From the NCBI GenBank assembly GCA_964483115.1, contig CAYZZF010000001.1:19907-83906 (forward strand): a DNA stretch of 64,000 nt, read 5' to 3'. The stretch is from an uncultured Gammaproteobacteria bacterium. GTDB taxonomy: Bacteria; Patescibacteriota; Microgenomatia; Levybacterales; UBA12049. The notes beneath the pieces were generated by a model. It did no database searches and was not told the origin of the DNA. It saw nothing but the letters and a program-made list of their open reading frames with translations. Every line of letters starts with the position of its first letter. Positions within the stretch are counted from its first letter, which is position 1. Made by a program: the position numbers and the translations under genes. Shown here piece after piece: positions 6,562 through 64,000 of this stretch.

Positions 6562-6562
6562 A

Positions 6563-13331: not shown

Positions 13332-15077
13332 ATGAATTTTTTGAAAAAGTATCTAGGACTTCTAGTGGTTATTTTTCTTTCGATACCCTCTATTCTTTCT
13401 CTTTTTCACCCTGGGTTTTTCCCAATGCATGATGATACGCAAGTGGCGAGAGTTTTTGAGATAGGGAAGGCACTAAGAGATGGAATGTTTCCCGTGCGCT
13501 GGGTTGCAGATCTTGGATATGGATATGGTTACCCAATTTTTAATTTTTATGCACCGCTTGCTTATTATTTTGGAGGACTTCTAAGTATTTTAGGGTTTAA
13601 CGCACTTACCTCAACGAAAATTATGATGGGAACAGGAATTCTACTTTCAGGTATTTTTATGTATTTTTTTGCTCAGGAATTGTTTGGGAAGCTTGGAGGA
13701 GTAGTTTCAGGGTTATTTTATGTTTATGCGCCATATCATGCTGTTGATGTTTATGTTAGGGGCGATGTTGCGGAATTCTGGGCATACGCATTTATACCTT
13801 TAATGTTTCTTGGATTCTACAAATTAATCTCAAATCTTCCGCCTCGCAGCCAGACGAGTAAATCTAAAAACTTGAGATGGGTAATTGTTGGAGCGATTGG
13901 ATTTGCGGGAATTGTTCTATCTCATAATTTAACAGCTATGATGATAATACCATTTTTAATAATTATTCTATTATTCTATTGCTTCGTCGCTTTTAGAAAC
14001 AAGAACCTATTTACTATTTACTATTTACTATTTACTATTTTTTTGGGTTTACTTTTGTCTGCCTTTTATTGGTTACCTGCTCTTTTTGAAATGAAATCTA
14101 CAAATGTACTATCTCAAATTGGAGGAGGGGCAAATTTTCGAGATCACTTTGTTTGTTGGCAGCAGCTTTGGAGCTCTCCTTGGGGTTTTGGAGGTTCAAC
14201 CTCAGGGTGTATTGATGGAATATCTTTTATGGTTGGTAAATTATATATACTTATGTCTACAGCCGCAATTGTCTTAGCAACTTCTTTAATAAATAAAAAT
14301 TTAATCAGAAAAAAAGATAATAGCAAGATATTTTTTATTTTATTTTCAATTTTTGGACTGCTCGTTTCAGTATTCTTGACACTTGAAATATCTAAACCTG
14401 TTTGGGAGTTAATTTTCCCTATGGCATTTTTGCAATACCCATGGAGATTTCTTCTATTTACTTCGTTTTTTACTTCAGTTCTTGCCGGAGCGCTTTTCTG
14501 GTTTTTACGAATTTTATTTTATAAGTTTAGGCACTTTAATACTATATATTATTTAAGCGCAGTAATTGTGATCTTAGCTCTTATTTACCTTAACGCAAAA
14601 CTTTTTATACCACAAATAATTATTAACAAAAATAACAATGATTACACAAATAATGTTGCTCTCAAGTGGATCGCCTCAAAAATATCCGATGAGTATATGC
14701 CAAAAAACTTTAATAAACCTAAATCAGAAAACCAGATTGTAAATAACAAAATATTACCCGCAGAATCTAGTGTAAAAATTTTATACGGCGTTCAAGATAC
14801 TAAAAGTTTACAAGCTTTTATCGATGTTCCTAAAGATACAAAAGTTAAGATAAACACCGCCTTTTTTCCCGCATGGACTGCTTTTGTAGATGGTAAAAAA
14901 GCTGAGCTGTATGCAACAAATCAAGGAGTGAACATTTTTATGTCTTCGGGAAAACATACATTTAATATGGAGTTTATAGAAACGCCGATAGAAAAATTGG
15001 CTAATTTTATCTCTCTTACTGGCTTATTTATACTTATTATTGGTATAATTCCTCTAAAGAGAAGCCTATATAAATGA
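13332..15077 (+). CDS. polytopic membrane protein, GT-C-like family A, paralog 2
   Basis: Same N-terminal signature (LFHPGFFPMHDDT...GMFPVRWVADLGYGYGYP). Contains an in-frame (CTATTTA)x4 tract. Confidence 0.5.
   Translation: MNFLKKYLGLLVVIFLSIPSILSLFHPGFFPMHDDTQVARVFEIGKALRDGMFPVRWVADLGYGYGYPIFNFYAPLAYYFGGLLSILGFNALTSTKIMMGTGILLSGIFMYFFAQELFGKLGGVVSGLFYVYAPYHAVDVYVRGDVAEFWAYAFIPLMFLGFYKLISNLPPRSQTSKSKNLRWVIVGAIGFAGIVLSHNLTAMMIIPFLIIILLFYCFVAFRNKNLFTIYYLLFTIFLGLLLSAFYWLPALFEMKSTNVLSQIGGGANFRDHFVCWQQLWSSPWGFGGSTSGCIDGISFMVGKLYILMSTAAIVLATSLINKNLIRKKDNSKIFFILFSIFGLLVSVFLTLEISKPVWELIFPMAFLQYPWRFLLFTSFFTSVLAGALFWFLRILFYKFRHFNTIYYLSAVIVILALIYLNAKLFIPQIIINKNNNDYTNNVALKWIASKISDEYMPKNFNKPKSENQIVNNKILPAESSVKILYGVQDTKSLQAFIDVPKDTKVKINTAFFPAWTAFVDGKKAELYATNQGVNIFMSSGKHTFNMEFIETPIEKLANFISLTGLFILIIGIIPLKRSLYK
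14007..14041 (+). repeat. (CTATTTA)x4 perfect plus one variant unit, in-frame in the family-A gene at 13332
   Basis: Read directly: ctattta x4 then ctatttt. Encodes LFTIYYLLFTIF. Confidence 0.95.
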
Positions 15078-20514: not shown

Positions 20515-22854
20515 ATGTTTAAAAATTTTATTTTGAGGTTTTGGCCGGTTATTTTTATTTTTTTAATCTGGTTTATTTTTTCAAGTCCTTATTTTCTTAA
20601 AAATAGAGTCCCGTTCGCTTCGACTTATCAAGTTAATTTTTTTCCTCCTTGGAGCGCTTACCCCCAGTTTGCGGGTCCGGTTAAAAATAATGCAATGCCT
20701 GATGTTATTACTCAAATTTACCCATGGAAGCATTTTACAATAGAAACTTATAAACAAGGCCATATCCCTCTTTGGAATCCCTATAGTTTTTCAGGAACCC
20801 CACATCTTGCAAATTATCAGTCAGCAGTACTTTCCTCATTTAATTTATTGTTTTTTATAATGCCTTTTGTTGATGCATGGAGCATTCTTGTCCTTCTTCA
20901 ACCTCTTTTAGCTGGTATTTTTATGTATTTATTTACCAGAAGTCTTGAGAGGAGTAAATTTGCAAGCCTTATCGCATCTATCTCGTTTATGTTTTCTGGA
21001 TTTATTACTGTTTGGATGGGTTATGCGACTTTAGGATACGCCATTTTATTTTTACCTCTTTGCCTTTTTGCAATAGAAAAATATTATAAGACAGCCAAGT
21101 TCAAGTTCTTAATTCTACTTTCTATAACTATTCCCCTATCTTTCTTCAGCGGTCATTTCCAAATTAGCTTATATTTTTTAGCGACAATCTTTATTTACGT
21201 TATTTATAAATTTATCACTACTAAAAATATACATAATACTTTATATGTAATACTTTATACTTTTTTTGGTCTGCTTTTGGCAATGCCGCAGCTACTCCCA
21301 TCAATAGAGTTCTATTCTCAATCATTCAGAAGTAAATTATTCCAGATACAAGAAGCAATTCCTTGGCAATATATCCCAACATTTTTAGCTCCTGATTTTT
21401 TCGGCAACCCTGTTACTAGAAATGATTGGTTCGGACATTATGCCGAATGGAATGGTTATATAGGAGTTTTACCTATAATGCTTGCTTTTTATAGTATTTT
21501 AGGTAAAAAAAAAGTTCAAACACTTTTTTTATTCATTTTTGGCATTATCACCATTTTTTTGGCGTTTAATACACCCTTATTAAATCTTATCATAAATCTT
21601 CATATACCTGTTTTATCTACCAGTGCCGCAAGCAGAATTATAGTTATCTATAGTTTTCTTTTTACTACCTTGTCAGCTTTTGGGTTTGATCAACTTATTA
21701 AAGATATAAAATATGGAAATTTGAAGAAAATCATTATTTGGTTTGTTGCATTTTTATTAGTTTTTATAGTTTTATGGGCGATAGTTATTTTAAAATTATT
21801 TATACCGGCCGAACGAATTATCGTTGCTAGACAAAATCTTATTCTACCAACACTTATTTTTCTTGTTTCTTATTTCTTAATTTTTATCGGAGTTGTTTTT
21901 AGAAGATACAGTAAAAACTCCCTTTTTATATTGTCACTTTCTATAATTTTAATTTTTGTCGTTTCTTTTGATATGCTCAGATTTACGTTAAAATGGCAAG
22001 CTTTCGACCCTAAAAATTTAGTTTTTCCTGATGTTAAAACTACTAGGGAATTCTCTAAAATTTTAGGATACGAACGAGTGTTAGGCAATCTTGAAGGAGA
22101 AGATACTGTTTATTATAGCATTCCCTCTGTTGATGGATACGATGCTTTGTACATTAAAAGATATGGTGAATTTATAGCTTCGCTTGACAATGGAAAAATT
22201 AAAGAATCTTACCGTTCTGTAGTCGCTTTTCCAAAAAATGGTATATATACCCCAAAAGCAATTAACCTTTTAGGAATTAAATATATTATCCATAAGGTAG
22301 CCGATAATAATAAAGCTTGGGCTTTCCCGTTTGGGTCTTATCCAAAGGGAAACTTTAATCTTATTTATGATGACGGCAGGTATCAAATTTTTGAAAACAA
22401 AACTGTTTTTCCCCGCGTGTTTTTAGTAGGCGAGTATAAAGTTATTACAGACCCTCAAAAGATTATTGATACAATGTTTAGTGATAATTTTAATTTAAAG
22501 AAAGAAATTGTCTTAGAAAAAGACCCGGGTATTAAGAAAACAAAACAAGATATAGGCAGTGCAAATATTACCAATTACAGTCCAGATCAAATAGATATTG
22601 ATGTTGCCGTAAATAATCAAGGGCTGCTTTTTTTGTCTGATAGCTATTACAGAGACTGGAAAGCCGAGATTGATGGGGTAGATACACCGATTTATAGAGC
22701 TGATTATACTTTTAGAGCAATTAAGGTTCCTTCAGGAAAGCACATAATTAGATTTATTTATGACCCAAAGAGTTTTAGATTAGGAATCTATCTAGCAGTT
22801 TTGGGGATAATTCTTATTTTAGTACTAGTACCTAGGCATGATCCCAAAATTTAA
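20515..22854 (+). CDS. yfhO: YfhO-family GT-C membrane glycosyltransferase (paralog)
   Basis: QIYPWKHFTIETYKQGHIPLWNPYSFSGTPHLANYQSAVLS. Confidence 0.75.
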   Translation: MFKNFILRFWPVIFIFLIWFIFSSPYFLKNRVPFASTYQVNFFPPWSAYPQFAGPVKNNAMPDVITQIYPWKHFTIETYKQGHIPLWNPYSFSGTPHLANYQSAVLSSFNLLFFIMPFVDAWSILVLLQPLLAGIFMYLFTRSLERSKFASLIASISFMFSGFITVWMGYATLGYAILFLPLCLFAIEKYYKTAKFKFLILLSITIPLSFFSGHFQISLYFLATIFIYVIYKFITTKNIHNTLYVILYTFFGLLLAMPQLLPSIEFYSQSFRSKLFQIQEAIPWQYIPTFLAPDFFGNPVTRNDWFGHYAEWNGYIGVLPIMLAFYSILGKKKVQTLFLFIFGIITIFLAFNTPLLNLIINLHIPVLSTSAASRIIVIYSFLFTTLSAFGFDQLIKDIKYGNLKKIIIWFVAFLLVFIVLWAIVILKLFIPAERIIVARQNLILPTLIFLVSYFLIFIGVVFRRYSKNSLFILSLSIILIFVVSFDMLRFTLKWQAFDPKNLVFPDVKTTREFSKILGYERVLGNLEGEDTVYYSIPSVDGYDALYIKRYGEFIASLDNGKIKESYRSVVAFPKNGIYTPKAINLLGIKYIIHKVADNNKAWAFPFGSYPKGNFNLIYDDGRYQIFENKTVFPRVFLVGEYKVITDPQKIIDTMFSDNFNLKKEIVLEKDPGIKKTKQDIGSANITNYSPDQIDIDVAVNNQGLLFLSDSYYRDWKAEIDGVDTPIYRADYTFRAIKVPSGKHIIRFIYDPKSFRLGIYLAVLGIILILVLVPRHDPKI

Positions 22855-26558: not shown

Positions 26559-27502
26559 ACGTAAGCATTATTATTCCAAATTATAATGGAGAAAAGCTTT
26601 TAAAGAAAAATTTGCCGGAGGTTTTTAAAGCAGCAGTTAATTATAAAAATGGGGAAGTAGAAATTATTTTTGTTGACGATGGCTCCATTGATAAAAGTAC
26701 AACTTTTATCAAATCTCAAATCTCAAAACTCAAGACTCAAAACTTCGAATTGAAACTTCTTAAAAACCAGAAAAATCTTGGGTTTTCATCGACGGTAAAT
26801 CATGGGGCAAGAGAAGCAAAAGGAGATATTTTGGTTTTGCTGAATACAGATGTTATTCCGGAGAAAAATTTCCTGGAGCCATTGATAGAGCATTTTAAAG
26901 ATAATGATGTATTTGCGGTTGGGTGCATGGATAAAAGTGTTGAGGACAATCAAGTCATTTTAAGAGGTAGAGGTATTGGAAAATGGCAAAGAGGATTTTT
27001 GGTTCATGAAAGGGGGGAGGTTAATAAAAACAATACTCTTTGGGTAAGTGGCGGGAGCGGAGCTTTTAGAAAATCAATTTGGGATAAGCTTTCTGGGCTT
27101 AATGAGCTTTATAATCCATTTTACTACGAAGATATTGATTTATCCTACAGGGCTCTTAAGTCAGGATATAAATTATTGTTTGAACCCGACAGCGTAGCTT
27201 TGCACGAACATCAAAAAGGTATAATAAGAAGAAAATATTCAAACTTTAAAGTAAAGACAATTGCATATAAAAATCAATTTATTTTTGTTTGGGAGAATGC
27301 TACAGATATTGATATTCAATTTTTACATTTTTTATGGTTACCATACCATTTTATTAAGGCTGTTATAAGATTAGATTGGGCCTTTTTTCTTGGTTTTTTT
27401 GAAGCTTTTATTTTACTGCCGAAGGTTATAAAATTTAGTTTTAAGGCGCAAAAATTATTTATTAAATCAGATAAGGAAGTGGTGAAAGAATTTGAAAAAT
27501 GA
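26555..27502 (+). CDS. GT2 glycosyltransferase
   Basis: VSIIIPNYNGEKLL, FVDDGSIDKS and LLNTDVIPE. Has a heptamer tract inserted between DDGS and the NLGFS motif. Confidence 0.7.
   Translation: MNVSIIIPNYNGEKLLKKNLPEVFKAAVNYKNGEVEIIFVDDGSIDKSTTFIKSQISKLKTQNFELKLLKNQKNLGFSSTVNHGAREAKGDILVLLNTDVIPEKNFLEPLIEHFKDNDVFAVGCMDKSVEDNQVILRGRGIGKWQRGFLVHERGEVNKNNTLWVSGGSGAFRKSIWDKLSGLNELYNPFYYEDIDLSYRALKSGYKLLFEPDSVALHEHQKGIIRRKYSNFKVKTIAYKNQFIFVWENATDIDIQFLHFLWLPYHFIKAVIRLDWAFFLGFFEAFILLPKVIKFSFKAQKLFIKSDKEVVKEFEK
26709..26743 (+). repeat. (TCAAATC)x2 plus three variant units, in-frame in the GT2 gene at 26555
   Basis: tcaaatc tcaaatc tcaaaac tcaagac tcaaaac. Confidence 0.85.
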
Positions 27503-28215
27503 AATTATCAATTATAATGCCTGTTTTTAATGAGGAGAAAACAATACGAGATATTCTTGGAAAAGTGGTTGCTGTAGATATCCAAGGTGTTAGCAAAGAA
27601 ATTATTGTTGTTGATGACGGATCGACTGATGCTAGCGCATCTCAAATCTCAAATCTCAAATCTCAAAACTTAAATTTTAAATTTATACAACATAAAAAAA
27701 ATATGGGGAAAGGAGCAGCTGTTAGGGCAGGAATTGAAAATTCGACAGGGGATTATATCATAATTCAAGATGCGGATTTGGAATATGAGCCAAATGATAT
27801 AAAAAAACTTATTGCGCCAGTTCAAAAGGGCCAAGCACAGGTTGTATATGGGACAAGACTTAATCGCCTGCCGAATTTTACAAGAGATGAGAGAACCTTT
27901 CTTTTTCTGCTGCACTATCTTGGTAACAGATTCTTAAGTCTTGTAACAAGCATTTTATACAGACAGTGGATTACCGATATGGAAACCTGCTATAAACTTT
28001 TTCCCAAAAAAGCTTTAGAGAAAGTAAAACTTAATTCTAGAAGATTTGATTTTGAACCGGAAATCACTTCTAAGTTACTTAAGAAAGAGTATAAAATTTT
28101 AGAAGTACCAATCGTAACTAAACCTAGGGGATACGATGAAGGGAAAAAACTTCACACAATAAGGGATGGATCTATAGCTTTATGGACATTAATAAAATAC
28201 AGATTTATCGATTAA
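27499..28215 (+). CDS. GT2 polyprenyl-phosphate sugar synthase (DPM1/GtrB-like)
   Basis: LSIIMPVFNEE, VVDDGSTDAS and IQDADLEYEP. Has an (ATCTCAA)x4 tract after DDGSTDAS. Confidence 0.7.
   Translation: MKLSIIMPVFNEEKTIRDILGKVVAVDIQGVSKEIIVVDDGSTDASASQISNLKSQNLNFKFIQHKKNMGKGAAVRAGIENSTGDYIIIQDADLEYEPNDIKKLIAPVQKGQAQVVYGTRLNRLPNFTRDERTFLFLLHYLGNRFLSLVTSILYRQWITDMETCYKLFPKKALEKVKLNSRRFDFEPEITSKLLKKEYKILEVPIVTKPRGYDEGKKLHTIRDGSIALWTLIKYRFID
27639..27685 (+). repeat. (ATCTCAA)x4 perfect plus degenerate units, in-frame in the GT2 gene at 27499
   Basis: atctcaa x4 then aacttaa attttaa. Encodes SQISNLKSQNLNFK. Confidence 0.95.
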
Positions 28216-34616: not shown

Positions 34617-36302
34617 GTGAAGAGAACTAATTTTATCTTAATTTTTATTATTATAGTAGCCGCTTTTTTACGCTTTTATCAACTTGGGACAAATCCTCCT
34701 TCATTGACCTGGGATGAAGTGGCCTGGGGATATAATGCTTACTCTTTGGGACTTGATGGGAAAGATGAATTTGACAGATTTTTACCCGTTGATTATTTAG
34801 AGTCATTTGGGGATTTTAAGCCTCCTGTTTATGCATATCTAGATGTCATTCCGATAAAATTATTTGGACTCACCACCTTTGCGGTGAGATTCCCCTCTGC
34901 TTTTTTTGGCGTTCTTACGGTTTTACTAACTTATTTTTTGGTAAAAAGAATATTCTATAATTCAAAAAATAAAGAACTTTATGCTTTATTCTCCACTTTT
35001 ATTCTTGCAATATCTCCTTGGCATATTTTGCTCTCTCGTGCGGCATTTGAGGCAAACGTTGCATCATTTTTCATCGTAATGGGCATGTTTCTTTTTTTCA
35101 AGGCAATATCTCAAGGTGTAGCCTCTATATCACCTCGGAGGTGGGGTTATATTTACACCTTAGGATTTTTTCTTATCTTGTCTGTTATCTCTTTTATTCT
35201 TTCTATGTATACTTTTAGCACCGCAAGAATTATTGCTCCTCTTTTAATTATAATTTTAGCAGTAGGTTTTAGAAAAGAGCTTCTTTCGCGAAAAAAAGAA
35301 ATAGCTCTTGCAATTATTCTCGGATTTTTTTTGCTATTGCCACTTATAAATTTTTTATTTACACCAGCTGCAAGTCTTAGGTTTAGAGAGGTAAATATTT
35401 TTTCCGATATAGCTGTTATTGAGAATACAAATCAGGAAATTACCAATGATAATGATGCTATTTGGTCAAAAGTAATTCACAATAGACGCTTTGCTTATGC
35501 TGTATCTTATTTCAGACATTATTTTGATAATTTAAGTCCAAGCTTTCTTTTTATAAAAGGAGATGGAAATCCTAAGTTTTCAACTCAAACAGTTGGAGAA
35601 ATGTACTTATGGGATTTGCCATTTTTCATTGTTGGTGTTTTTCTGCTTATTAAAAGAAAAGAAGGCAATTGGTGGATTATTCCCGCTTGGCTTATCTTAG
35701 GAATAATTCCTGCCGCGACTGCTCGTGAAACCCCCCATGCTTTAAGAATCGAAGCAACACTTCCGACTTTCCAAACCATAACCGCAATTGGAGTAAGTTC
35801 GTTTATAATCTGGATAAAGAATCTAAGACTAAAAAAATATTTTAAATCTTTAATTGTCATTTTTATATTTTCATTTTTAATTTTTAATTTTGTATATTTT
35901 TATCATGATTATTTTGCGCATTATTCAAGAATTTATTCGGGAGAATGGCAGTATGGATACAGAGATTCAATTGAGTATGTAAAAAGCGTTCAAAATCAAT
36001 ATGACGAAATCCGCATTACAAATAAATTGGGAAGACCATATATATATTATCTATTTTATACAAATACAAACCCTAAGATATTTAGAAAAACTGCACAAAT
36101 TAAAAGAGATTCTTTTGGATTTGTGACCATCCGCGGATTTTCTAAATATCGTTTTTCGGACAGTCTTTTGTCAATAAAAGATAAAGCAAGGAGAGTCCTT
36201 TATATCGATATTCCAGCAAGAGTTCCAAAAAAAGTAGAGATTTTGAAATCGTTTTACTTACTTAACGGAGAGAAAATGCTGGTTGCCTATAGAGAAAATT
36301 GA
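34617..36302 (+). CDS. GT-C membrane glycosyltransferase (ArnT/PMT_2-like), first of three tandem paralogs
   Basis: GTNPPSLTWDEVAWGYNAYSL...DEFDRFLPV...FKPPVYAYL. GTG start. Confidence 0.6.
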   Translation: MKRTNFILIFIIIVAAFLRFYQLGTNPPSLTWDEVAWGYNAYSLGLDGKDEFDRFLPVDYLESFGDFKPPVYAYLDVIPIKLFGLTTFAVRFPSAFFGVLTVLLTYFLVKRIFYNSKNKELYALFSTFILAISPWHILLSRAAFEANVASFFIVMGMFLFFKAISQGVASISPRRWGYIYTLGFFLILSVISFILSMYTFSTARIIAPLLIIILAVGFRKELLSRKKEIALAIILGFFLLLPLINFLFTPAASLRFREVNIFSDIAVIENTNQEITNDNDAIWSKVIHNRRFAYAVSYFRHYFDNLSPSFLFIKGDGNPKFSTQTVGEMYLWDLPFFIVGVFLLIKRKEGNWWIIPAWLILGIIPAATARETPHALRIEATLPTFQTITAIGVSSFIIWIKNLRLKKYFKSLIVIFIFSFLIFNFVYFYHDYFAHYSRIYSGEWQYGYRDSIEYVKSVQNQYDEIRITNKLGRPYIYYLFYTNTNPKIFRKTAQIKRDSFGFVTIRGFSKYRFSDSLLSIKDKARRVLYIDIPARVPKKVEILKSFYLLNGEKMLVAYREN

Positions 36303-38026
36303 TGTTTGGGTTGAAAATGAATAAAAAAATTGTTTATCTTTGTCTTTTTTTGATTATTATTACTGCCTCAATATTAAGATTATGGCAGTTAGGAAATGTT
36401 CCGCCTTCTCCAGATTGGGATGAGGCTGCTCTTGGGTATAATGCATATTCGATTTTACATACAGGCCGCGACGAGTATGGAAAGTTATTGCCGATTGTAC
36501 TTAGGTCATTTGATGATTATAAGCCTGCTTTATATGCATATTTAGTCATTCCATTTATCAAAATAATTGGTCTAAATGTAGTCGCGGTAAGATTACCTTC
36601 AGTAATCTTTGGCATACTGACTGTTATTGCAACATATTTCTTGGTTAAAGAATTACTCGGCGAAAAACTCAAAGCTCAAAATGCAAATCTCAAAATTGTA
36701 ACTCAAAACTCAAAAGTTGAACCACTTGCTCTTTTAACAGCGTTTTTACTTGCAATTTCTCCCTGGCACATCCAATTTTCAAGAATTGCGTTCGAATCAA
36801 ATGTTGGTCTTGCATTTAATGTTTTCTTTGTATTTTTCTTTCTCAAAGGTCTTAAAAAACCATGGTTGCTTATTTTATCTGCTTTCTTTATGGGAATAAA
36901 TATATATGTCTATCAGAGTGAAAAAGTTTTTACCCCGCTTTTACTTTTAGCGCTTGTCGTGATATTTAGAAAAGAGCTTTTTTCTATTCCTAAAAAATAT
37001 ATTATTTATGCAGTAGTTATTGGTATTTTGGTGTTTTTACCAATGGCAGGATATATCATTAGCAACAAAAACGTTTTTGAAAGAGCGCAAGGAGTCAGTA
37101 TCTTTGCAGAGTCCTCACAGCTTTTGGAAGAAAATTCTAAAAAACTTCTTGTTGATAGGCAAAACAATGATTTCTTAGGTCTCATACTAGATAACCGCCG
37201 TATCGTTTTTGCCAAAGAGATTATATCAGGATATGTTTCGCACTTTAATCTTAATTGGCTTTTTATAACTGGTGATATTGCAAGGCATCATGCTCCTAAT
37301 ATGGGACTTTTGTATCTTTTCGAATTACCATTCTTGTTTGTTGGTATCTATGAGTTGATTTTTGGTAAGTTTGATAAAAAAATAAAGTTTTTAATATTTT
37401 CGTGGTTTCTTATTGCACCTATACCAGCGTCAATTACAAGTGGAGTGCCTCATGCGGTTAGGTCCCTCAATTTTCTTCCCATGTTCCAAATATTTATAGC
37501 ATTAGGAATAGTTAGCAGTATTGCTTTAATTTCAAATTTTAAATTTAAAATTTTAAATTTTAAAATATGGAAACTATTTGCTATTTGCTATTTGCTATTT
37601 GCTATTTTTAATTTTTTATATTATTTAGACCAATATTTTGTTCAGCTTAATTATTTTAACTCAAAAGATTGGCAGTATGGCTATAAACAAACAATAGATA
37701 CCGTTAAGCAGATAGAAGTAAAATATAAAAAAATTATTGTATCTAACCAGCCATATTTAGATCAGTCTTATATGTTTTTTCTCTTTTACTTAAAATACCC
37801 ACCCGAATTGTATCAGAAAGAATCAAAATTTGCTTCTGGGGGTTTTAGAGAAAATCATAAATTTGGAAAATTTGAATTTAGGCCATTTAATTTTGAAAAT
37901 GAAAAAGAAACAGAAGTTTTGTATATAGGAAGACCGCTTGATTTTCCGCAAAATGACTTAGGACAAGTAAAAACCATAAATTTTTTAGATGGAACTCCGG
38001 CAATAAAAATGGTTGAAAGATTATGA
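36299..38026 (+). CDS. GT-C membrane glycosyltransferase (ArnT/PMT_2-like), second tandem paralog
   Basis: GNVPPSPDWDEAALGYNAYSIL...DEYGKLLPI...YKPALYAYL. Carries a degenerate heptamer tract plus (AAATTTT)x4 and (CTATTTG)x4 tracts. Confidence 0.6.
   Translation: MMFGLKMNKKIVYLCLFLIIITASILRLWQLGNVPPSPDWDEAALGYNAYSILHTGRDEYGKLLPIVLRSFDDYKPALYAYLVIPFIKIIGLNVVAVRLPSVIFGILTVIATYFLVKELLGEKLKAQNANLKIVTQNSKVEPLALLTAFLLAISPWHIQFSRIAFESNVGLAFNVFFVFFFLKGLKKPWLLILSAFFMGINIYVYQSEKVFTPLLLLALVVIFRKELFSIPKKYIIYAVVIGILVFLPMAGYIISNKNVFERAQGVSIFAESSQLLEENSKKLLVDRQNNDFLGLILDNRRIVFAKEIISGYVSHFNLNWLFITGDIARHHAPNMGLLYLFELPFLFVGIYELIFGKFDKKIKFLIFSWFLIAPIPASITSGVPHAVRSLNFLPMFQIFIALGIVSSIALISNFKFKILNFKIWKLFAICYLLFAIFNFLYYLDQYFVQLNYFNSKDWQYGYKQTIDTVKQIEVKYKKIIVSNQPYLDQSYMFFLFYLKYPPELYQKESKFASGGFRENHKFGKFEFRPFNFENEKETEVLYIGRPLDFPQNDLGQVKTINFLDGTPAIKMVERL
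36665..36714 (+). repeat. degenerate 7-nt periodic tract (aaactca aagctca aaatgca aatctca aaattgt aactcaa aactcaa) in the GT-C gene at 36299
   Basis: Read directly. Confidence 0.75.
37534..37608 (+). repeat. two adjacent heptamer tracts, (AAATTT[T/A])x4 then (CTATTTG)x4 plus one variant unit, in-frame in the GT-C gene at 36299
   Basis: aaatttt aaattta aaatttt aaatttt ... ctatttg x4 ctatttt. Encodes FKILNFKIWKLFAICYLLFAIF. Confidence 0.9.
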
Positions 38027-39714
38027 GAAATCTTAAGATTCTTTTTCTTTTAAGTATTATTCTTTTGGCCGTATTCTTACGTTTTTATAAATTAAATACC
38101 GTTCCACCGAGTGCCTCTTTAGACGAGGCAAGCATTGGTTTTAATGCTTACTCAATTCTTCAAACAGGAGAGGATGAGTACGGATATAAATTTCCCATTC
38201 TTCTCAGAGCTTACGATGATTGGCGCCCTGCGCTTTACGTTTATCTTGTCATTCCATTTGTAAAAATTTTTGGTCTTGATGCTATATCGGTGCGCTTACC
38301 TTCGGTGATTCTTTCAGTTCTAACTATTTTAGCAACTTATTTTTTGGTAAAAAAACTTTTTAAACTCAAAACTCAAAACTCAAAACTCAAAAATACAATT
38401 CAAAATTCAAAAGAATCAGAAATTAGTAGTTTGAGATTAGAAATTTTAGCTTTGCTTTCAATAGGATTGTTCGCGATATCCCCATTGAGTGTATATATTT
38501 CAAGACTTGGCCACGAAGCAAATCTAGGACTATTTTTTGTTGTTTTTGGAATTTTATTTTTTCTGCTTTCGCAAAGAAAAAAAACGTTTCTTATTCTTTC
38601 TGCAATTTTTTTTGCTCTATCTTTATATTCATATCAGAGTGAAAAAATATTTGCCCCGCTTATAGTTATTGCTCTGGGTATTATATACAGAAAAGAGCTT
38701 TATAAGATAAAAAAAACTCTTTTACTATCTATTGTTATAGGATTATTAATTTCGATTCCAATTTTAGCTGCTTCTTTTTCTCCGCAAGCGCTTATTAGAT
38801 TTAAAGGAACCAGCGCATTTGATGCTTCTAATCCTTTATATAGTCAAAGCGCAAAACGTCTTCTTATAAGTCGGCAGAAGAGCGATATTATTGGTGAGGT
38901 TCTAAACAATAGACGAATAACAAGCGTATATATTTTTATTTCCCAATATTTTTCAAATTTTAATCCGCAATGGATTTTTGAGAATCGTGGAAACGAATCA
39001 TTTAAAGCGCCAGGAGTTGGACTTTTATATTTTTGGGAGGCTCCGTTTCTTTTGGTTGGGATATTTTCCCTTTTCAAAAATAAATATTCATCAAAGACAA
39101 AAGCTGTTGTCGCTTCTTGGGCTCTAATAGCTTTTGTTGCTCCTTCTATAACAACTCAAGCCCCTCATGCTATGAGATCTTACAATGTATTGCCAATACC
39201 TCAGATTTTGATTGGCCTTGGGATCCTTGAAATGGGTAAATTCTTCCCTAAAAAGCTTGGAATTATTTTGCTTGCCATTTTAGTGGTTTCTCAACTTTAC
39301 TACTTCTTTAATCAATATTTTTTTGTTTTTCCAAGAACGGAATCATCTTCATTTCAATATGCTTTATCAAATGTAATGCCTTATGTTTCTAGAGTCAAAA
39401 ATAAATATAAAACTGTTGTAATTTCAAATAGGGATAACTTATACCAATCTTATATGTTTTATCTTTTTTATACTAGATATAAGCCAACATTGTATTTAGG
39501 AAACGGAGGTACTGTATCTGGCGGATTTGCTCAAACGCATAAAATTGACAATCTTTTGTTTAAGCCCATTTCTTTTAAAGATAATGCAATAGAAGGGAAA
39601 ACCCTTTATGTAGGTAATCCTTCGGATTTTCCAAAATCCGAAGCTAGTCTTCTTATGTTTGAAAACCTTGATGGAAAACCTGCCGTAGAAGTGGTATCAA
39701 AAAATGAAAATTAA
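38023..39714 (+). CDS. GT-C membrane glycosyltransferase (ArnT/PMT_2-like), third tandem paralog
   Basis: NTVPPSASLDEASIGFNAYSIL...DEYGYKFPI...WRPALYVYL. Carries an (AAACTCA)x4 tract. Confidence 0.6.
   Translation: MRNLKILFLLSIILLAVFLRFYKLNTVPPSASLDEASIGFNAYSILQTGEDEYGYKFPILLRAYDDWRPALYVYLVIPFVKIFGLDAISVRLPSVILSVLTILATYFLVKKLFKLKTQNSKLKNTIQNSKESEISSLRLEILALLSIGLFAISPLSVYISRLGHEANLGLFFVVFGILFFLLSQRKKTFLILSAIFFALSLYSYQSEKIFAPLIVIALGIIYRKELYKIKKTLLLSIVIGLLISIPILAASFSPQALIRFKGTSAFDASNPLYSQSAKRLLISRQKSDIIGEVLNNRRITSVYIFISQYFSNFNPQWIFENRGNESFKAPGVGLLYFWEAPFLLVGIFSLFKNKYSSKTKAVVASWALIAFVAPSITTQAPHAMRSYNVLPIPQILIGLGILEMGKFFPKKLGIILLAILVVSQLYYFFNQYFFVFPRTESSSFQYALSNVMPYVSRVKNKYKTVVISNRDNLYQSYMFYLFYTRYKPTLYLGNGGTVSGGFAQTHKIDNLLFKPISFKDNAIEGKTLYVGNPSDFPKSEASLLMFENLDGKPAVEVVSKNEN
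38362..38410 (+). repeat. (AAACTCA)x4 perfect plus three degenerate units, in-frame in the GT-C gene at 38023
   Basis: aaactca x4 then aaaatac aattcaa aattcaa. Encodes KLKTQNSKLKNTIQNSK. Confidence 0.95.
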
Positions 39715-43862: not shown

Positions 43863-44917
43863 ATATAGCAATAGATATCTCGCCCCTTAAGAGCGGACAT
43901 TTTTTACAACACAGAGTTAGAGGAACAGGTTTTTATATAGATAATTTAAAAAGATCATTAATGAAATATTTTCCAGACAATAAATACACTTTTTTTACTC
44001 GAGGAGAAAAACTGTCCAAAGATATAGACTTAGTTCACTATCCTTATTTTGAGCCATTTTTTTTGACACTTCCTCTAGTTAAAAATCGCAAATCAGCTAT
44101 TACAATTCATGATTTGACTCCTCTTGTTTTTTCAAATGCTTTTCCAAGAGGAATAAGAGGAGAAATTAAATGGCAAATTCAAAAAAAACTTTTGGAAAGA
44201 GCAGATGTAATTATTACAGATTCAGAATGTTCAAAAAAAGACATTACTAGGTATACTGGTATACCTGACAAAAAAATTAATGTCGTTTATCTTGCAGCAG
44301 GAGAACAGTTTAAAAGAATCAAGAATCAAGAATCAAGAATCAGGGATCTGAAAACAAAATATGGATTGCCTGAAAGGTTCGTACTCTATGTAGGCGATGT
44401 TACCTGGAATAAAAATCTGCCAAGGCTGATCGAAGCGATAAAAAAGATTAATGCTACTTTGGTTATGACTGGCAGGACTTTAGCAAGTAAAGATTTTGAC
44501 CGCAATAATCCTTGGAACCAAGATCTAGTTCGGGTTCAAGAATTGGCAAAAGACGATAAAAGAATTATCCGCTTGGATTTTGTTCCGACAGGAGATTTAG
44601 TCTTTCTCTACAATATGGCCACTGTCTTTGCAATGCCCAGCTTATATGAGGGGTTTGGCTTGCCGATTCTCGAGGCTATGAGCTGCGGTTGCCCTGTTGT
44701 AACATCAAAAGAGGGTTCTTTGGAAGAAATTGCAAAAGATGCAGCTTTTTATGTAGATGCATATAATGTCGAAAGCATTGCAAAAGGGATTAAACAATTA
44801 TTTGCAAGCGACAGCCTGAGAAGAGAATTTTCAAAAAAAGGACTGGAACAGGCGAAAAAATTTTCATGGAAAAAAACAGCAGAAGATACTTTAAAAGTAT
44901 ATAAGAAAGTATTGTAA
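43859..44917 (+). CDS. GT4 (GT-B fold) glycosyltransferase
   Basis: EGFGLPILEAMSCGCPVVTSKEGSLEEI. Carries an (AAGAATC)x4 tract. Confidence 0.7.
   Translation: MNIAIDISPLKSGHFLQHRVRGTGFYIDNLKRSLMKYFPDNKYTFFTRGEKLSKDIDLVHYPYFEPFFLTLPLVKNRKSAITIHDLTPLVFSNAFPRGIRGEIKWQIQKKLLERADVIITDSECSKKDITRYTGIPDKKINVVYLAAGEQFKRIKNQESRIRDLKTKYGLPERFVLYVGDVTWNKNLPRLIEAIKKINATLVMTGRTLASKDFDRNNPWNQDLVRVQELAKDDKRIIRLDFVPTGDLVFLYNMATVFAMPSLYEGFGLPILEAMSCGCPVVTSKEGSLEEIAKDAAFYVDAYNVESIAKGIKQLFASDSLRREFSKKGLEQAKKFSWKKTAEDTLKVYKKVL
44314..44341 (+). repeat. (AAGAATC)x4 perfect, in-frame in the GT4 gene at 43859
   Basis: aagaatc x4. Encodes KNQESRIRD. Confidence 0.95.
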
Positions 44918-62131: not shown

Positions 62132-64000
62132 ATTATTTCTATTTGTATTTATTTTATTAACGCTAACAGTTTTTAAAAATTGGTTTTTTTTAAATCCCCT
62201 TTCTTCGGGTGACTGGAGTTATAACTTCAGCGAGTCTATAAAAACTTTTACAATTTTTCCTTACTCTTGGTTTTTTAACTTAAATGCAGGACTTGGGGGC
62301 ACAAGCCTTTTTATTTTGTCTTTGAGTTCTTATTTTTTATTTACAACATCTTTTTTGTTTAATTTTTTCAAAATTCCCTGGGTTTTAATAGAAAGATTGG
62401 TCTGGTTTTGGCCGTTTTTATTAATTTCTGCTTTCTCCTCTTATTTTTTGTTTAAAAAATTATTTTCTGAAAAGTTCGCATTACTCTCATCTTTTATTTT
62501 TCTTTTTAACTCCTACATCTTAATGATCGTCGGAGGCGGGCAAATGGGTGTAGCATTTGCTTATGCCATGGCTCCGCTAGTTTTATATGTTTTTATTAAA
62601 ACCATTGATTTTTTTAATTTTTCAAAAAATAATATTCAATTTTCAATTTTCAATTTTCAATTACCTTTACTTTCAGGGTTATTATTTTCAATTCTGGTTT
62701 TGTTTGATTTAAGGATTGCGTATATATGCATAACTTCCGTAATGCTGTATTTGGTATTAAATATAAAGTATAAAGTATCAAAAAATAACTTTTTGCGTAT
62801 CTTAAATTTAATTTCTTATTCTTTGATAATTCCGGCGGTAATTACATTTCTTTTGAATTCTTTTTGGATAATTCCGTTGATAGCAGGCGGGAAAAATCCA
62901 CTTGTAGAACTAGGCAGTGTTTACAGCTCTTTAGAGTCGGTTAAATTTTTCAGTTTTGCTAAATTTGAGAATTCTATCGGACTTCTGCATCCAAATTGGC
63001 CGGAGAATATTTTCGGAAAAGTCGGTTTTATGAGACCTGAGTTTCTATTTCTACCAGTACTTGCTTATGCAAGTCTGTTTTTTGCAGCAAAGATTAAAGA
63101 TTCAAGATTAAAGACTTATGTTATTTATTTTGCGTTATTAGGGTTAATCGGAGCTTTTTTGGCAAAAGGGGTAAACGAACCTTTTGGCAGAATATACCTT
63201 TGGCTTTTTAATCATTTCACGGGATTTGTGATGTTTAGGGACCCGACTAAGTGGTACACGCTAGTTGCAGTTTCATATTCAGTTTTAATTCCATTCACTG
63301 TATGGAAGTCTTATGAGTGGTTGAAGTCGCAATCAAAATTTCAAATCTCAAATTTCAAATTTCAAATAAGGTCCAAATCTCAAATTCTCAATTTTCAAAA
63401 CTTATTTTTTTTGCTTGTTACCGGTTACTTGTTGTTCTTAATTAGACCGGCATTTTTTGGTCAATTAACAGGCACATTTAAGCCCCATGAAATTCCAAAG
63501 GATTATATAAGGCTTGAAGAATTTTTAAGCAGTAAAAAAGACTTCTTCAGAATCCTTTGGGTTCCAGAGTGGCAGCGGTTCGGTTTTTTTTCCAATAACC
63601 ACCCGGCAATAGGAGGAGGGGAGATTTTTAAGAAAGATGCAGAAAATCAGATAAAACAGCTTAAACAAAAAGGTACAGAAGGCTTGCTTGAAGATCTGTC
63701 AGTCAAGTATATTATTATTCCTTATGATTCGGAGAAAGAGATATTTCTAAGAGACAGAAAGTATGATGATAAATTGTATGAGAAGAGCATAACTGAAACT
63801 AGGAAAATTAAATGGCTCAGGGAGATTGACGGCTTTGGAAAAATCAAAGTTTTTGAAGTCCCAAATCCCAAAGATCATTTTTGGAGCCCCTCGACTAACC
63901 TTCAAGTTAAATACAGGTATGTTAATCCGACGAAATATGAAGTTTATGTAAAAAATGCAAAAAAGGGAGACTTATTAGTATTCTCGGAGGGTTTTGATAA
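62115..64000 (+). CDS. polytopic GT-C-like membrane protein, 3' end outside the window
   Basis: The frame is open from a GTG at 62115 (VKNYFKLFLFVFILL...) to the window edge (more than 628 codons, no stop) and is not in the ORF track. It has multiple TM helices followed by a hydrophilic C-terminal region, and carries two degenerate heptamer tracts. Confidence 0.5.
   Translation, partial: MKNYFKLFLFVFILLTLTVFKNWFFLNPLSSGDWSYNFSESIKTFTIFPYSWFFNLNAGLGGTSLFILSLSSYFLFTTSFLFNFFKIPWVLIERLVWFWPFLLISAFSSYFLFKKLFSEKFALLSSFIFLFNSYILMIVGGGQMGVAFAYAMAPLVLYVFIKTIDFFNFSKNNIQFSIFNFQLPLLSGLLFSILVLFDLRIAYICITSVMLYLVLNIKYKVSKNNFLRILNLISYSLIIPAVITFLLNSFWIIPLIAGGKNPLVELGSVYSSLESVKFFSFAKFENSIGLLHPNWPENIFGKVGFMRPEFLFLPVLAYASLFFAAKIKDSRLKTYVIYFALLGLIGAFLAKGVNEPFGRIYLWLFNHFTGFVMFRDPTKWYTLVAVSYSVLIPFTVWKSYEWLKSQSKFQISNFKFQIRSKSQILNFQNLFFLLVTGYLLFLIRPAFFGQLTGTFKPHEIPKDYIRLEEFLSSKKDFFRILWVPEWQRFGFFSNNHPAIGGGEIFKKDAENQIKQLKQKGTEGLLEDLSVKYIIIPYDSEKEIFLRDRKYDDKLYEKSITETRKIKWLREIDGFGKIKVFEVPNPKDHFWSPSTNLQVKYRYVNPTKYEVYVKNAKKGDLLVFSEGFD
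62636..62663 (+). repeat. (TCAATTT)x3 plus one variant unit, in-frame in the terminal GT-C-like gene
   Basis: tcaattt tcaattt tcaattt tcaatta. Confidence 0.9.
63341..63400 (+). repeat. degenerate (TCAAAT[C/T])n tract (tcaaatc tcaaatt tcaaatt tcaaata ... aaatctc aaattct caatttt) in the terminal GT-C-like gene
   Basis: Read directly. Encodes KFQISNFKFQIRSKSQILNFQN. Confidence 0.8.

What the first reader, a model, noticed from the sequence alone, without database searches (positions are those of the whole stretch)
36665..38410. Tandem ArnT/PMT-like paralogs each carry heptamer tracts, and the middle paralog carries three
The CDS at 38023 has a perfect (AAACTCA)x4 at 38362. The CDS at 36299 has a degenerate version at the equivalent position (36665) plus two further adjacent tracts, (AAATTTT)x4 and (CTATTTG)x4, at 37534-37608 in a different loop. 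The first paralog at 34617 has none. So the paralog set is graded from 0 to 3 tracts, consistent with ongoing tract birth and decay.
Basis: seen in the sequence. Interest (0 to 1): 0.7.

Follow-up and report, generated by a model that had tools for sequence, protein, structure and literature searches.

The report
In-frame 7-base repeats in glycosyltransferase genes
Short runs of a repeated 7-base unit sit in frame inside many sugar-transferase genes of this Levybacteria (CPR) genome and its relatives, encoding floppy loops and even a membrane helix; they look like products of DNA copying slippage that selection tolerates, and nothing here shows they act as on/off switches.

Summary
The tracts are real and far beyond chance: 7 perfect period-7 tracts of at least 4 copies in 64 kb, against none in simulations and none for periods 5, 6 or 8-15. 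They are not special to these three genes. They occur across the window and across 80 related Microgenomates loci (TRF arrays: period 7 = 104, period 6 = 1).

The three "paralogs" are ancient orthogroups; the par1-par2 tandem is conserved in about 56 genomes. In 113 orthologs strong tracts occur only at the N-terminus, a loop after an early membrane helix (site 1), and a loop plus the last membrane helix (site 2). The CTATTTG tract encodes part of a confidently predicted helix, not a loop. Paralog 1 has a decayed tract at site 2.

Near-perfect coding tracts hold 3.7-5.3 copies, consistent with one original unit plus three added (21 nt, 7 aa). At site 2 the unit is identical in species whose flanking DNA is 63% identical, which implies ongoing homogenisation.

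Birth and decay is supported. The switch idea is not: no tract interrupts a reading frame, no copy-number differences appear between close relatives or among 12 contigs of one species, and copy numbers lie below those of known phase-variable heptanucleotide tracts. Read-level data could still overturn this.

The parts
34617..36302 (+). Paralog 1: GT39/PMT_2-type GT-C glycosyltransferase (561 aa), member of an orthogroup found in 57 related loci
   Evidence: ORF. Pfam PMT 2e-12 and PMT_2 4e-7. Orthologs at 52-65% identity in the related loci.
35837..35902 (+). Decayed period-7 array (ATTTTTA-like, 9 copies, 69% matches) in paralog 1 at the site-2 equivalent; encodes KYFKSLIVIFIFSFLIFNFVYFY
   Evidence: TRF. 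Aligned with the paralog 2 tracts.
36299..38026 (+). Paralog 2: GT39/PMT_2-type GT-C glycosyltransferase (575 aa from the TTG; an ATG at 36317 is an alternative start), member of an orthogroup found in 56 related loci
   Evidence: ORF. Pfam PMT_2, split into two stretches at the tract. AF2 model pLDDT 88, with GT-C fold matches to STT3, ArnT and PglB.
36664..36715 (+). Site-1 tract of paralog 2: degenerate (AAAACTC)x7.6 at 65%, encoding EKLKAQNANLKIVTQNSK. It is a disordered loop between two membrane helices. The loop is 14 aa (2 x 7) longer than in paralog 1.
   Evidence: Model residues 116-133 are coil, with pLDDT below 50 at 124-131. Segment length 35 against 21 residues, counted from the translations.
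37528..37564 (+). Site-2a tract of paralog 2: (AATTTTA)x5.3 at 90%, encoding LISNFKFKILNFK. It forms a short, Lys-rich loop before the last membrane helix. One T-to-A change removes an in-frame TAA.
   Evidence: Heptamer-type peptides occur at the same place in many orthologs.
37574..37607 (+). Site-2b tract of paralog 2: perfect (CTATTTG)x4.9 encoding LFAICYLLFAIF, part of the last membrane helix
   Evidence: Helix at model residues 413-447, pLDDT 93-94. Identical unit in L001 and a one-base variant in L003, although flanks are 63% identical.
38023..39714 (+). Paralog 3: GT39/PMT_2-type GT-C glycosyltransferase (563 aa); identical to database protein P0001; closest other relative is 70% identical, 542 aa, and lacks the tract peptide in the alignment
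38362..38412 (+). Site-1 tract of paralog 3: perfect (AAACTCA)x4.4 at 38362-38392, followed by an older (AATTCAA)-like part. It encodes KLKTQNSKLKNTIQNSK.
   Evidence: It is an insertion relative to 120 homologs.
6562..6598 (+). (AATCTCA)x5.3 starting at the start codon of a GT87-like membrane protein (MSNLKSQISNLK)
   Evidence: Other tracts directly after a start codon occur in L058 and L023.
14007..14040 (+). Perfect (CTATTTA)x4.9 encoding LFTIYYLLFTIF in a 581-aa membrane protein. The same position carries period-7 arrays with other units in about 10 related loci.
21228..21263 (+). Decayed (TATACTT)x5.1 at 68% in a YfhO-family membrane protein. It lies at a similar distance into the protein as the ATTCTTA-type arrays in L009, L014, L015 and L027.
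26709..26744 (+). (TCAAAAC)x5.1 at 89% in a GT2 glycosyltransferase, just after the DDGS.D motif (IKSQISKLKTQNF)
27639..27684 (+). (ATCTCAA)x5.3 at 90% (perfect for 4.1 copies) in the neighbouring GT2 paralog at the same position (ASQISNLKSQNLNFKF)
44314..44342 (+). Perfect (AAGAATC)x4.1 in the linker between the two Rossmann domains of a GT4 glycosyltransferase (KRIKNQESRIR)
62631..63367 (+). Three period-7 arrays (62631-62662 AATTTTC x4.6; 63089-63114 AAAGATT x3.7; 63336-63367 AAATTTC x4.6) in one open frame that starts about 62106 and runs off the window; no Pfam match

Best explanation
The tracts are coding-region heptanucleotide microsatellites. They are made by a 7-nt-specific replication-slippage process that operates across the genomes of Levybacteria and other Microgenomates.

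**Which tracts survive (inferred from the pattern)**
- A 7-nt unit is read in all three frames, so a tract survives in a gene only if the unit has no stop codon in any frame of the coding strand.
- The net length change must also be a multiple of 21 nt (three units, seven residues).
- That would explain why near-perfect coding tracts hold about 4-5 copies: one original unit, three added, and a partial unit.

**What the surviving tracts encode**
- A-rich units give Lys/Asn/Gln/Ser-rich peptides. These are tolerated only in loops that I infer to be cytoplasmic, at protein termini, and in domain linkers.
- T-rich units give hydrophobic peptides that can stand in for a membrane helix whose exact sequence matters little.

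**How the sites evolve**
- The same permissive sites are used again and again in orthologs and paralogs.
- Tracts are re-homogenised by further slippage (concerted evolution) and otherwise decay by point mutation. Loops grow in steps of about 7 residues.

**Shown versus inferred**
- Shown: the period-7 excess, the site restriction, the intact frames, the loop and helix placement, and unit identity across diverged species.
- Inferred: slippage as the mechanism, the 1+3 birth step, the cytoplasmic location of the loops, and that the tracts are tolerated by-products rather than regulated switches.
- Inferred: birth and homogenisation must pass through frameshifted intermediates or multi-unit stutter events. 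This suggests that single members of this large paralog family are transiently dispensable.
For: - **Period-7 specificity.** The window has 7 perfect tracts against 0 for periods 5, 6 and 8-15, and 0.0 expected. The 80 related loci (1.42 Mb) have 27 perfect period-7 tracts against 0-3 for any other period from 5 to 12. TRF arrays: period 7 = 104, period 6 = 1, period 8 = 8, period 9 = 15.
- **Diverse units.** Units include AAACTCA, CTATTTG, AAGAATC, ATTGGGA, AGCCATC and AAATCCG, so periodicity is shared rather than sequence.
- **Frames intact.** 88 of 94 arrays lie in one uninterrupted frame. The other 6 are intergenic or at gene ends, where copy numbers such as 8.9 and 5.7 occur.
- **Copy number.** Perfect coding tracts of at least 4 copies are all 28-34 nt.
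- **Site restriction.** In 113 par1 and par2 orthologs strong tracts occur only at the N-terminus, site 1 and site 2. Lag-7 and lag-14 peaks at site 2 persist over 55 other orthologs, while other membrane helices show only codon periodicity.
- **Structural placement.** Site 1 is a disordered loop and site 2b is a confident helix. The Pfam PMT_2 match is interrupted at site 1.
- **Concerted evolution.** The window and L001 share (CTATTTG)x4 exactly, and L003 has CTATTTG followed by (TTATTTG)x3. Flanking coding DNA is 63% identical and third codon positions 40%.
- **Decay.** L014 compared with L019.
- **Loop-length steps.** 21, 28, 35, 42 and 49 residues.
- **Not specific to membrane proteins.** Tract density per residue is the same in multi-TM and other ORFs.
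- **Prior knowledge.** Heptanucleotide repeats are the most abundant long SSR class in many prokaryotes, and a polymerase-footprint slippage explanation has been proposed (Mrazek 2007, as summarised in PMC4679880 and PMC4692102).
Against: - Slippage itself was not observed. No length polymorphism was seen in any comparison, so the rate is unknown.
- Pure tolerance does not obviously explain why units are more alike within a genome than between genomes: 18.6% against 6.8% of pairs differ by at most 1 mismatch, permutation p below 0.0005.
- It also does not explain why the unit at site 2b stayed identical in the window and L001.
- At site 2b the tract-bearing and tract-less orthologs have the same helix length. 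The tract replaced sequence rather than simply adding 21 nt, which needs compensating deletions.
- Every carrier gene identified is glycosylation-related. That is also what a contingency-locus model predicts, although the sampled neighbourhoods are dominated by such genes.
Confidence: 0.6

Rival explanations
1. The tracts are contingency loci (phase variation). Gain or loss of one 7-nt unit shifts the frame and reversibly switches individual glycosyltransferases off and on. This would diversify the cell-surface glycans of an episymbiotic CPR bacterium. Second-order selection for switchability would keep tracts at the same sites.
For: - The unit length is not a multiple of 3, and the tracts are perfect and sit inside ORFs, some directly after the start codon.
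- All carrier genes identified are glycosyltransferases or related envelope proteins, the classic targets of phase variation.
- Tracts persist at orthologous sites and are homogenised. With constant length, that implies lineages passed through +1/-1 (OFF) intermediates or multi-unit events.
- Many redundant paralogs exist.
- Two assemblies break 10 nt after a tract.
- Heptanucleotide tracts can mediate phase variation in H. influenzae (PMC2651432).
Against: - 0 of 88 coding arrays is out of frame, and no GT39 gene is frame-split at a tract.
- L014 and L019 (86% identical) have the same tract length.
- A protein with 3-4 tracts is identical on 12 contigs from several assemblies, with zero gaps over 5.6-8.3 kb. 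One further metagenome contig has the same length.
- Decayed tracts are invariant within 90% clusters.
- Copy numbers are 4-5, against 8-38 for the within-ORF and hmw-promoter heptanucleotide tracts described in H. influenzae.
- Many tracts are degraded, and some lie three-quarters of the way into the gene.
- Tracts also occur at the same density per residue in ORFs without multiple membrane helices.
Confidence: 0.2
2. The tracts are kept for what they encode. Seven-residue (heptad) modules would tune the length or flexibility of cytoplasmic loops and linkers, or the packing face of a membrane helix. Slippage would merely be the source of adaptive length variants.
For: - Loop lengths come in steps of about 7 residues.
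- The same sites are used in many orthologs.
- The site-2b unit is identical in diverged species.
- The tract-encoded helix is predicted with high confidence.
Against: - Selection on protein sequence does not preserve a 7-nt DNA period. Synonymous sites elsewhere are saturated (third positions 40% identical), yet the tracts stay perfect at the DNA level.
- Most orthologs do without the insert.
- The site-1 peptide is modelled as disordered.
- Peptide sequences differ freely between species.
Confidence: 0.1
3. Pre-formed heptamer arrays spread within a genome by templated insertion or ectopic gene conversion between tracts. They would then be a kind of miniature mobile repeat, not the product of independent local slippage.
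For: - Units are significantly more alike within a genome than between genomes.
- The same unit occurs at unrelated genes: AAATCTC at 6562 and 27639; CTATTTA and CTATTTG at 14007 and 37574; GACTTAA three times in L026.
- Array sizes are narrow.
Against: - Units are very diverse overall, and no flanking signature or associated enzyme was seen.
- The 28-34 nt size range is exactly what one unit plus three in-frame copies predicts.
- Tract units resemble the local ancestral sequence: the NSK/AATTCAAAA seed at site 1, and KLxAxxYLxF in the tract-less ortholog L022.
- Part of the within-genome similarity comes from paralogous sites.
Confidence: 0.08
4. The tracts act at the DNA or RNA level as binding sites, structured RNA elements or translational signals, in the way proposed for TAACTGA repeats in Beggiatoaceae or G-rich heptamers in Xanthomonas and Nostoc.
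For: - Some tracts lie at gene starts or junctions.
- The region around the 6562 tract folds better than shuffles, z = -2.7.
Against: - There is no shared unit sequence.
- More than 90% of arrays are inside coding sequence.
- The three tract regions of this finding show no structure: z = -0.3, -0.7 and +1.3.
- A/C-rich units cannot form G-quadruplexes.
Confidence: 0.04

Closest known systems
Over-representation of heptanucleotide simple sequence repeats in prokaryotic genomes (Mrazek, Guo and Shah 2007, as summarised in PMC4679880 and PMC4692102)
   Same: There is a strong excess of period-7 tandem repeats over other periods from 5 to 11 nt, with varied unit sequences. A slippage explanation tied to the polymerase footprint has been proposed.
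   Different: Units that are multiples of three were reported as the ones most likely to lie within coding regions, and the heptamer cases followed up (Xanthomonas, Nostoc) are mainly intergenic. Here more than 90% of arrays are inside genes, in frame, at conserved positions in glycosyltransferase families. The lineage (Microgenomates/CPR) does not appear with SSRs in the searched literature.
SSR-mediated phase variation (contingency loci), including heptanucleotide tracts in Haemophilus influenzae (hmw1A/hmw2A promoters, HI1369 homologue; PMC2651432, PMC8262952)
   Same: Repeats whose unit length is not a multiple of 3 lie in or next to envelope or glycosylation genes. A one-unit change would shift the frame.
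   Different: The H. influenzae within-ORF and hmw-promoter tracts have 8-38 copies, differ between strains, and are found in out-of-frame states. Here there are 4-5 copies, no strain differences and no out-of-frame cases.
Defined-sequence heptamer repeats: cyanobacterial tandem heptanucleotides (Calothrix), GGGAATC/GGGGAYT in Xanthomonas and Nostoc (PMC4692102), TAACTGA in Beggiatoaceae (PMC4679880)
   Same: 7-nt tandem units occur many times per genome, with some tendency for one genome to favour particular units.
   Different: Those families have one conserved unit, are mainly intergenic, and TAACTGA carries stops in all frames. Here units are diverse, stop-free on the coding strand, and translated.
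GT-C fold glycosyltransferases of the GT39/PMT_2 type (ArnT, PMT, and the more distant STT3/PglB)
   Same: The carrier proteins match Pfam PMT_2. They have the N-terminal loop with a conserved Asp-Glu pair and a GT-C fold model that matches ArnT, STT3, PglB and Pmt4.
   Different: They belong to a very large CPR-specific paralog expansion. Substrate and acceptor are unknown, and they carry the microsatellite-encoded loop and helix segments.

Membership tests
GT39/PMT_2-type GT-C glycosyltransferase | Pfam PMT_2 (PF13231) or PMT (PF02366) match above the curated cut-off | tested here: met
   All three paralogs score 29.7-47.7 bits against cut-offs of 22.7-26.1.
GT39/PMT_2-type GT-C glycosyltransferase | GT-C fold: multi-helix membrane domain plus a C-terminal soluble domain | tested here: met
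   AF2 model has pLDDT 88 and pTM 0.90. Foldseek matches STT3 (6s7t, E = 8e-8), ArnT (5f15, E = 9e-6), PglB and Pmt4.
GT39/PMT_2-type GT-C glycosyltransferase | Conserved acidic (Asp-Glu) motif in the first extracytoplasmic loop | tested here: met
   D35 and E36 are invariant in 62 sequences. The motif reads WDEV/WDEA/LDEA in the three paralogs.
GT39/PMT_2-type GT-C glycosyltransferase | Transfer of sugar from a polyprenyl-phosphate donor | not testable with these tools
   This needs biochemistry.
SSR-mediated phase-variable (contingency) locus | Tandem repeat with a unit not divisible by 3 inside the ORF or promoter | tested here: met
   Period-7 tracts lie inside the ORFs.
SSR-mediated phase-variable (contingency) locus | Tract length in the range known to be hypermutable | tested here: inconclusive
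   There are 4-5 copies (28-34 nt) here. Described within-ORF and hmw-promoter heptanucleotide tracts have 8-38 copies. No rate data exist for 4-5 copies in this lineage.
SSR-mediated phase-variable (contingency) locus | Copy number differs between closely related strains or samples | tested here: not met
   L014 and L019 have the same length. P0161 is identical on 12 contigs, at 99.97-100% nucleotide identity with zero gaps. L081 has the same length. This window's own species has no second sample.
SSR-mediated phase-variable (contingency) locus | Out-of-frame (OFF) alleles found in genomes | tested here: not met
   0 of 88 coding arrays interrupts the frame. The tblastn search found no GT39 gene split at a tract.
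SSR-mediated phase-variable (contingency) locus | Within-population length heterogeneity in reads | not testable with these tools
   No read data are available.
Heptanucleotide long-SSR over-representation (Mrazek 2007 type) | Excess of period-7 repeats over neighbouring periods and over chance | tested here: met
Heptanucleotide long-SSR over-representation (Mrazek 2007 type) | Non-triplet units lie mainly outside coding regions | tested here: not met
   88 of 94 arrays are inside long reading frames.
Defined-sequence heptamer repeat families (cyanobacterial heptanucleotides, GGGAATC, TAACTGA) | One conserved unit sequence throughout the genome | tested here: not met
   There are 13 arrays with at least 9 different units in the window.

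The most novel reading that the evidence does not exclude
Microgenomates (CPR) bacteria use short heptanucleotide tracts as slow contingency loci. Occasional plus or minus 7-nt slips would silence and revive individual members of their very large GT-C, GT2 and GT4 glycosyltransferase families, re-patterning the cell surface that mediates attachment to hosts. The same process would supply new loop and membrane-helix sequence. The conserved tract sites and the concerted evolution would be the footprint of selection for switchability.
Probability: 0.17. Interest if true: 0.8.

Novelty: new variant of a known kind. Interest (0 to 1): 0.55.

Why it matters
- **An unexpected bias.** It shows a strongly 7-nt-specific repeat-forming process inside genes. 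In 1.42 Mb of related DNA there are no perfect 6- or 9-nt repeats of 3 or more copies, although those would be harmless to the reading frame.
- **New protein sequence from microsatellites.** A microsatellite can write usable protein: disordered Lys-rich loops, and a membrane helix that stays a perfect DNA repeat in species whose surrounding codons are saturated with change.
- **A practical marker.** Loop-length variation in CPR glycosyltransferases can be traced to 21-nt steps.
- **A testable hypothesis.** It gives a concrete prediction about surface variation in uncultured episymbionts that existing metagenome reads could settle.
- **If ordinary.** If the tracts are only tolerated by-products, the finding is mainly a caution. 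In-frame non-triplet repeats in glycosylation genes should not be read as switches without population data.

Tried and rejected
- **Exact look-up of paralog 3 and P0001.** I tried to find other samples of this species, but nothing is on record. The next relative is only 70% identical, so strain-level variation of these very tracts could not be examined.
- **Metagenome scan with variable-gap flanks.** I used the flanks of a perfect tract from a well-sampled Rifle species. Only one more contig was found, with the same length.
- **90% protein clusters of tract-bearing homologs.** Degenerate tracts are invariant. One cluster has an allele lacking a 12-residue KTQNKTQN loop, but its flanks also differ, so it is not a simple slip.
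- **Apparent frameshifts at tracts in L062 and L067.** These are artefacts of N-masked stretches. The L004 frameshift at site 1 has no tract.
- **RNA secondary structure at the tracts.** Not significant.
- **Enrichment in membrane proteins.** This disappears when counted per residue.
- **Slippery-site reading of AAATTTT for programmed frameshifting.** Rejected, because the other units are not slippery and the frame is continuous.
- **Literature search.** I looked for heptanucleotide or simple sequence repeats in CPR/Patescibacteria and found nothing relevant in the held library. Mrazek 2007 itself was not held.

Full report
**1. The observation**

The window (32.7% G+C) carries three head-to-tail genes:
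- 34617-36302 (561 aa)
- 36299-38026 (575 aa)
- 38023-39714 (563 aa)

All three match Pfam PMT_2 or PMT.
- A perfect (AAACTCA)x4.4 at 38362-38392, which TRF extends to 38412.
- A degenerate counterpart at 36664-36715.
- (AATTTTA)x5.3 with 90% matches at 37528-37564.
- A perfect (CTATTTG)x4.9 at 37574-37607.

All are in frame and translated. The encoded peptides are KLKTQNSKLKNTIQNSK, EKLKAQNANLKIVTQNSK, LISNFKFKILNFK and LFAICYLLFAIF.

They are far beyond chance. The window has 7 perfect heptamer tracts of at least 4 copies. It has none of period 5, 6 or 8-15, and none appeared in 200 Markov simulations.

Two details of the finding need correcting:
- Paralog 1 has a decayed period-7 array at 35837-35902, at the position equivalent to the paralog 2 tracts.
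- The CTATTTG tract is not in a loop (see section 3).

**2. The tracts are a genome-wide and lineage-wide feature**

TRF finds 13 period-7 arrays in the window. The carriers are:
- a GT87-like protein, with the tract directly after the start codon
- a 581-aa membrane protein
- a YfhO-family protein
- two adjacent GT2 enzymes, just after the DDGS.D motif
- the three GT39 genes
- a GT4 enzyme, in the inter-domain linker
- an unannotated ORF at the window's end

The whole window is a glycosylation island.

Paralog 3 is identical to one NCBI protein. Named relatives are Levybacteria and other Patescibacteria.

I fetched 80 related loci (1.42 Mb) from Levy-, Gottesman-, Curtiss-, Roizman-, Shapiro- and Chisholmbacteria genomes.
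- Perfect repeats of at least 3 copies number 27 for period 7, against 3, 0, 1, 0, 0, 1 and 0 for periods 5, 6, 8, 9, 10, 11 and 12.
- TRF gives 104 period-7 arrays against 1 of period 6.
- The window is about six times richer than its relatives: 109 against 19 perfect tracts per Mb.

**3. Where the tracts sit**

The three genes are not recent duplicates. par1 and par2 each have orthologs at 52-65% identity in 56-57 loci, usually in the same tandem order, while they are about 35% identical to each other.

In 113 orthologs, strong period-7 windows occur at only three places:
- the N-terminus
- site 1 (residues about 114-144)
- site 2 (about 400-441)

*Site 1*
- It is a length-hypervariable loop after the helix that ends in ATYFLVKELF.
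- Among 120 homologs many carry heptamer-type peptides there, such as LEIGNWK, KFEIRNS and KTQNKTQN. Most have a short loop.
- The Pfam match is interrupted at this point.

*The AlphaFold model*
- An AlphaFold model of paralog 2 (pLDDT 88, pTM 0.90) has a GT-C fold matching STT3, ArnT, PglB and Pmt4.
- It shows site 1 as a low-confidence coil between two long helices.
- The AATTTTA tract spans a short loop and the adjoining helix ends.
- The CTATTTG tract lies inside a confident 35-residue helix, the last before the C-terminal domain.

*Topology (inferred, not shown)*
By analogy with solved GT-C enzymes, the acidic first loop and the C-terminal domain are outside the cell. Both loop sites would then be cytoplasmic, which fits their Lys-rich peptides.

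**4. Evolutionary behaviour**

- **Frame.** 88 of 94 non-overlapping arrays lie within one uninterrupted reading frame. The other six are intergenic or at gene ends.
- **Copy number.** Every perfect coding tract of at least 4 copies is 28-34 nt long. That is what one original unit, three added units (21 nt, frame-preserving) and a partial unit would give. Outside coding sequence, 8.9 and 5.7 copies occur.
- **Loop length.** Site-1 lengths in the par2 group cluster at 21, 28, 35, 42 and 49 residues. The window's paralog 2 is 14 residues longer than paralog 1 there.
- **Concerted evolution.** At site 2b the window and L001 both have (CTATTTG)x4, and L003 has CTATTTG followed by (TTATTTG)x3. The rest of the gene is 63-64% identical at the DNA level, and third codon positions about 40%. 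A 32-nt stretch would not stay identical and internally perfect without repeated homogenisation.
- **Persistence.** Over the 55 other par2 orthologs, site 2 shows lag-7 and lag-14 autocorrelation peaks and lacks codon periodicity. Other membrane helices show only lags 3, 6 and 9.
- **Decay.** L019 has a perfect (TTGGGAA)x4.3. In L014, 86% identical overall, the same-length tract carries four changes.
- **Replacement rather than insertion.** The tract-less ortholog L022 has the same helix length as the tract-bearing ones. At this site the repeat has replaced sequence rather than just adding to it.
- **Unit similarity.** Units are more alike within a genome than between genomes: 18.6% against 6.8% of pairs differ by at most one mismatch, permutation p below 0.0005. 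This is only partly explained by paralogous sites.

**5. Test of the switch idea**

A one-unit change would shift the frame, and the carrier genes are the kind that phase variation usually targets. Every available check came out negative.
- No array interrupts a frame.
- A tblastn search for frame-split GT39 genes found none at a tract. The L062 and L067 cases are N-masked, and L004 has a frameshift at site 1 without a tract.
- L014 and L019 have equal tract lengths.
- Degenerate tracts are invariant within 90% clusters. The one exception is an allele that lacks a 12-residue loop and also differs in its flanks.
- A Rifle Levybacteria protein with three to four tracts (P0161) is identical on 12 contigs from several assemblies. 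The five compared ENA contigs are 99.97-100% identical to the NCBI reference, with no gaps over 5.6-8.3 kb.
- A metagenome scan allowing a tract of 17-47 nt (31 nt in the reference, so up to two units lost or gained) found one more contig, with the same length.
- The H. influenzae heptanucleotide tracts described inside ORFs and in the hmw promoters have 8-38 copies, differ between strains, and are seen out of frame (PMC2651432).

These are consensus sequences, so rare variants remain possible. No second sample of this window's own species exists in the collections.

**6. Mechanism**

The best reading is a slippage process specific to 7-nt units. This was already noted as a general prokaryotic bias and tentatively linked to the polymerase footprint (Mrazek 2007, via PMC4679880 and PMC4692102). 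Here it is filtered by three constraints:
- No stop codon in any frame of the unit.
- Net length change in multiples of 21 nt.
- A protein site that accepts either a Lys/Asn/Gln/Ser-rich peptide (A-rich units) or a generic hydrophobic helix (T-rich units).

Birth from one unit to four, and homogenisation at constant length, must pass through out-of-frame intermediates or multi-unit stutters. That suggests single members of this very large paralog family are dispensable for a time. This is an inference. It is also the bridge to the more novel, unexcluded reading that the tracts work as slow switches.

Other readings fare as follows:
- RNA structure is not supported.
- Binding-site models are not supported, because there is no shared unit.
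- Spread of pre-formed arrays is possible but weak.

**7. Novelty**

Heptanucleotide SSR excess and SSR-mediated phase variation are both known. I did not find the following described in the searchable literature:
- an almost entirely intragenic, in-frame population of heptanucleotide tracts in CPR bacteria
- their position-conserved occurrence across orthologs of GT-C, GT2 and GT4 enzymes
- a tract that encodes a membrane helix and stays a perfect repeat across diverged species

I file it as a new variant of a known kind, of moderate interest. It would rise sharply if read data showed switching.

Noticed in passing
window 5800-64000: Nearly the whole window is one glycosylation island, almost all on the + strand and often with overlapping stop and start codons. 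It holds at least 7 PMT_2/GT39 genes, 3 YfhO-family genes, PTPS_related and AftD-like GT-C proteins, about 9 GT2, about 5 GT4, two flippase-like genes, and dTDP-sugar, epimerase and aminotransferase genes.
   Followed up: partly
window 6550-6620: The RNA around the start codon of the GT87-like gene folds better than shuffles (z = -2.7). A stem pairs the start-codon region with sequence downstream of the (AATCTCA) tract, leaving the tract as an unpaired loop.
   Followed up: no
L086 1-40 and L087 1-40 (equivalent to L082 about 9540): Two independent ENA assemblies of the same Rifle Levybacteria species both begin 10 nt after a site-2 heptamer tract of the par1 ortholog. This could be an assembly break caused by the repeat, or by hidden length heterogeneity.
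   Followed up: no
L004 8540-8600: A more distant GT39 paralog is frameshifted exactly at the site-1 loop, but no heptamer tract is present there. It could be a pseudogene, an assembly error, or the scar of a lost tract.
   Followed up: partly
P0037/P0121 versus P0127 (90% cluster, Rifle Levybacteria): Two alleles of one GT39 protein differ by presence or absence of a 12-residue KTQNKTQN-type loop at site 1, plus several flanking substitutions. The rest of the aligned regions shown is identical.
   Followed up: partly
L026 3020, 4749, 13062; window 6562 and 27639; window 14007 and 37574: The same heptamer unit recurs at unrelated genes within one genome. GACTTAA occurs three times in L026, once reverse-complemented. 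AAATCTC occurs in a GT87-like gene and a GT2 gene of the window. CTATTTA and CTATTTG occur in two different membrane proteins. Within-genome unit similarity is significant by permutation.
   Followed up: partly
L020 17859-17892 and L039 21075-21108: In two species a heptamer tract forms the C-terminal tail and stop region of a protein ending ...SAWKWH. It lies just before or at the start of the next gene, so a length change there could affect both genes.
   Followed up: no
L029 976-1077: The longest perfect tract seen, (AGATTTA)x8.9, followed by (AAAATTT)x3.9, lies in non-coding DNA just upstream of a GT39 gene and next to an N-masked stretch.
   Followed up: no
window 38413-38445: Downstream of the AAACTCA tract, the paralog 3 loop continues with sequence that looks like a still older, decayed heptamer array (AAATTAG/AGATTAG-like, encoding SEISSLRLE). 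This suggests stacked generations of tracts. TRF does not call it.
   Followed up: no
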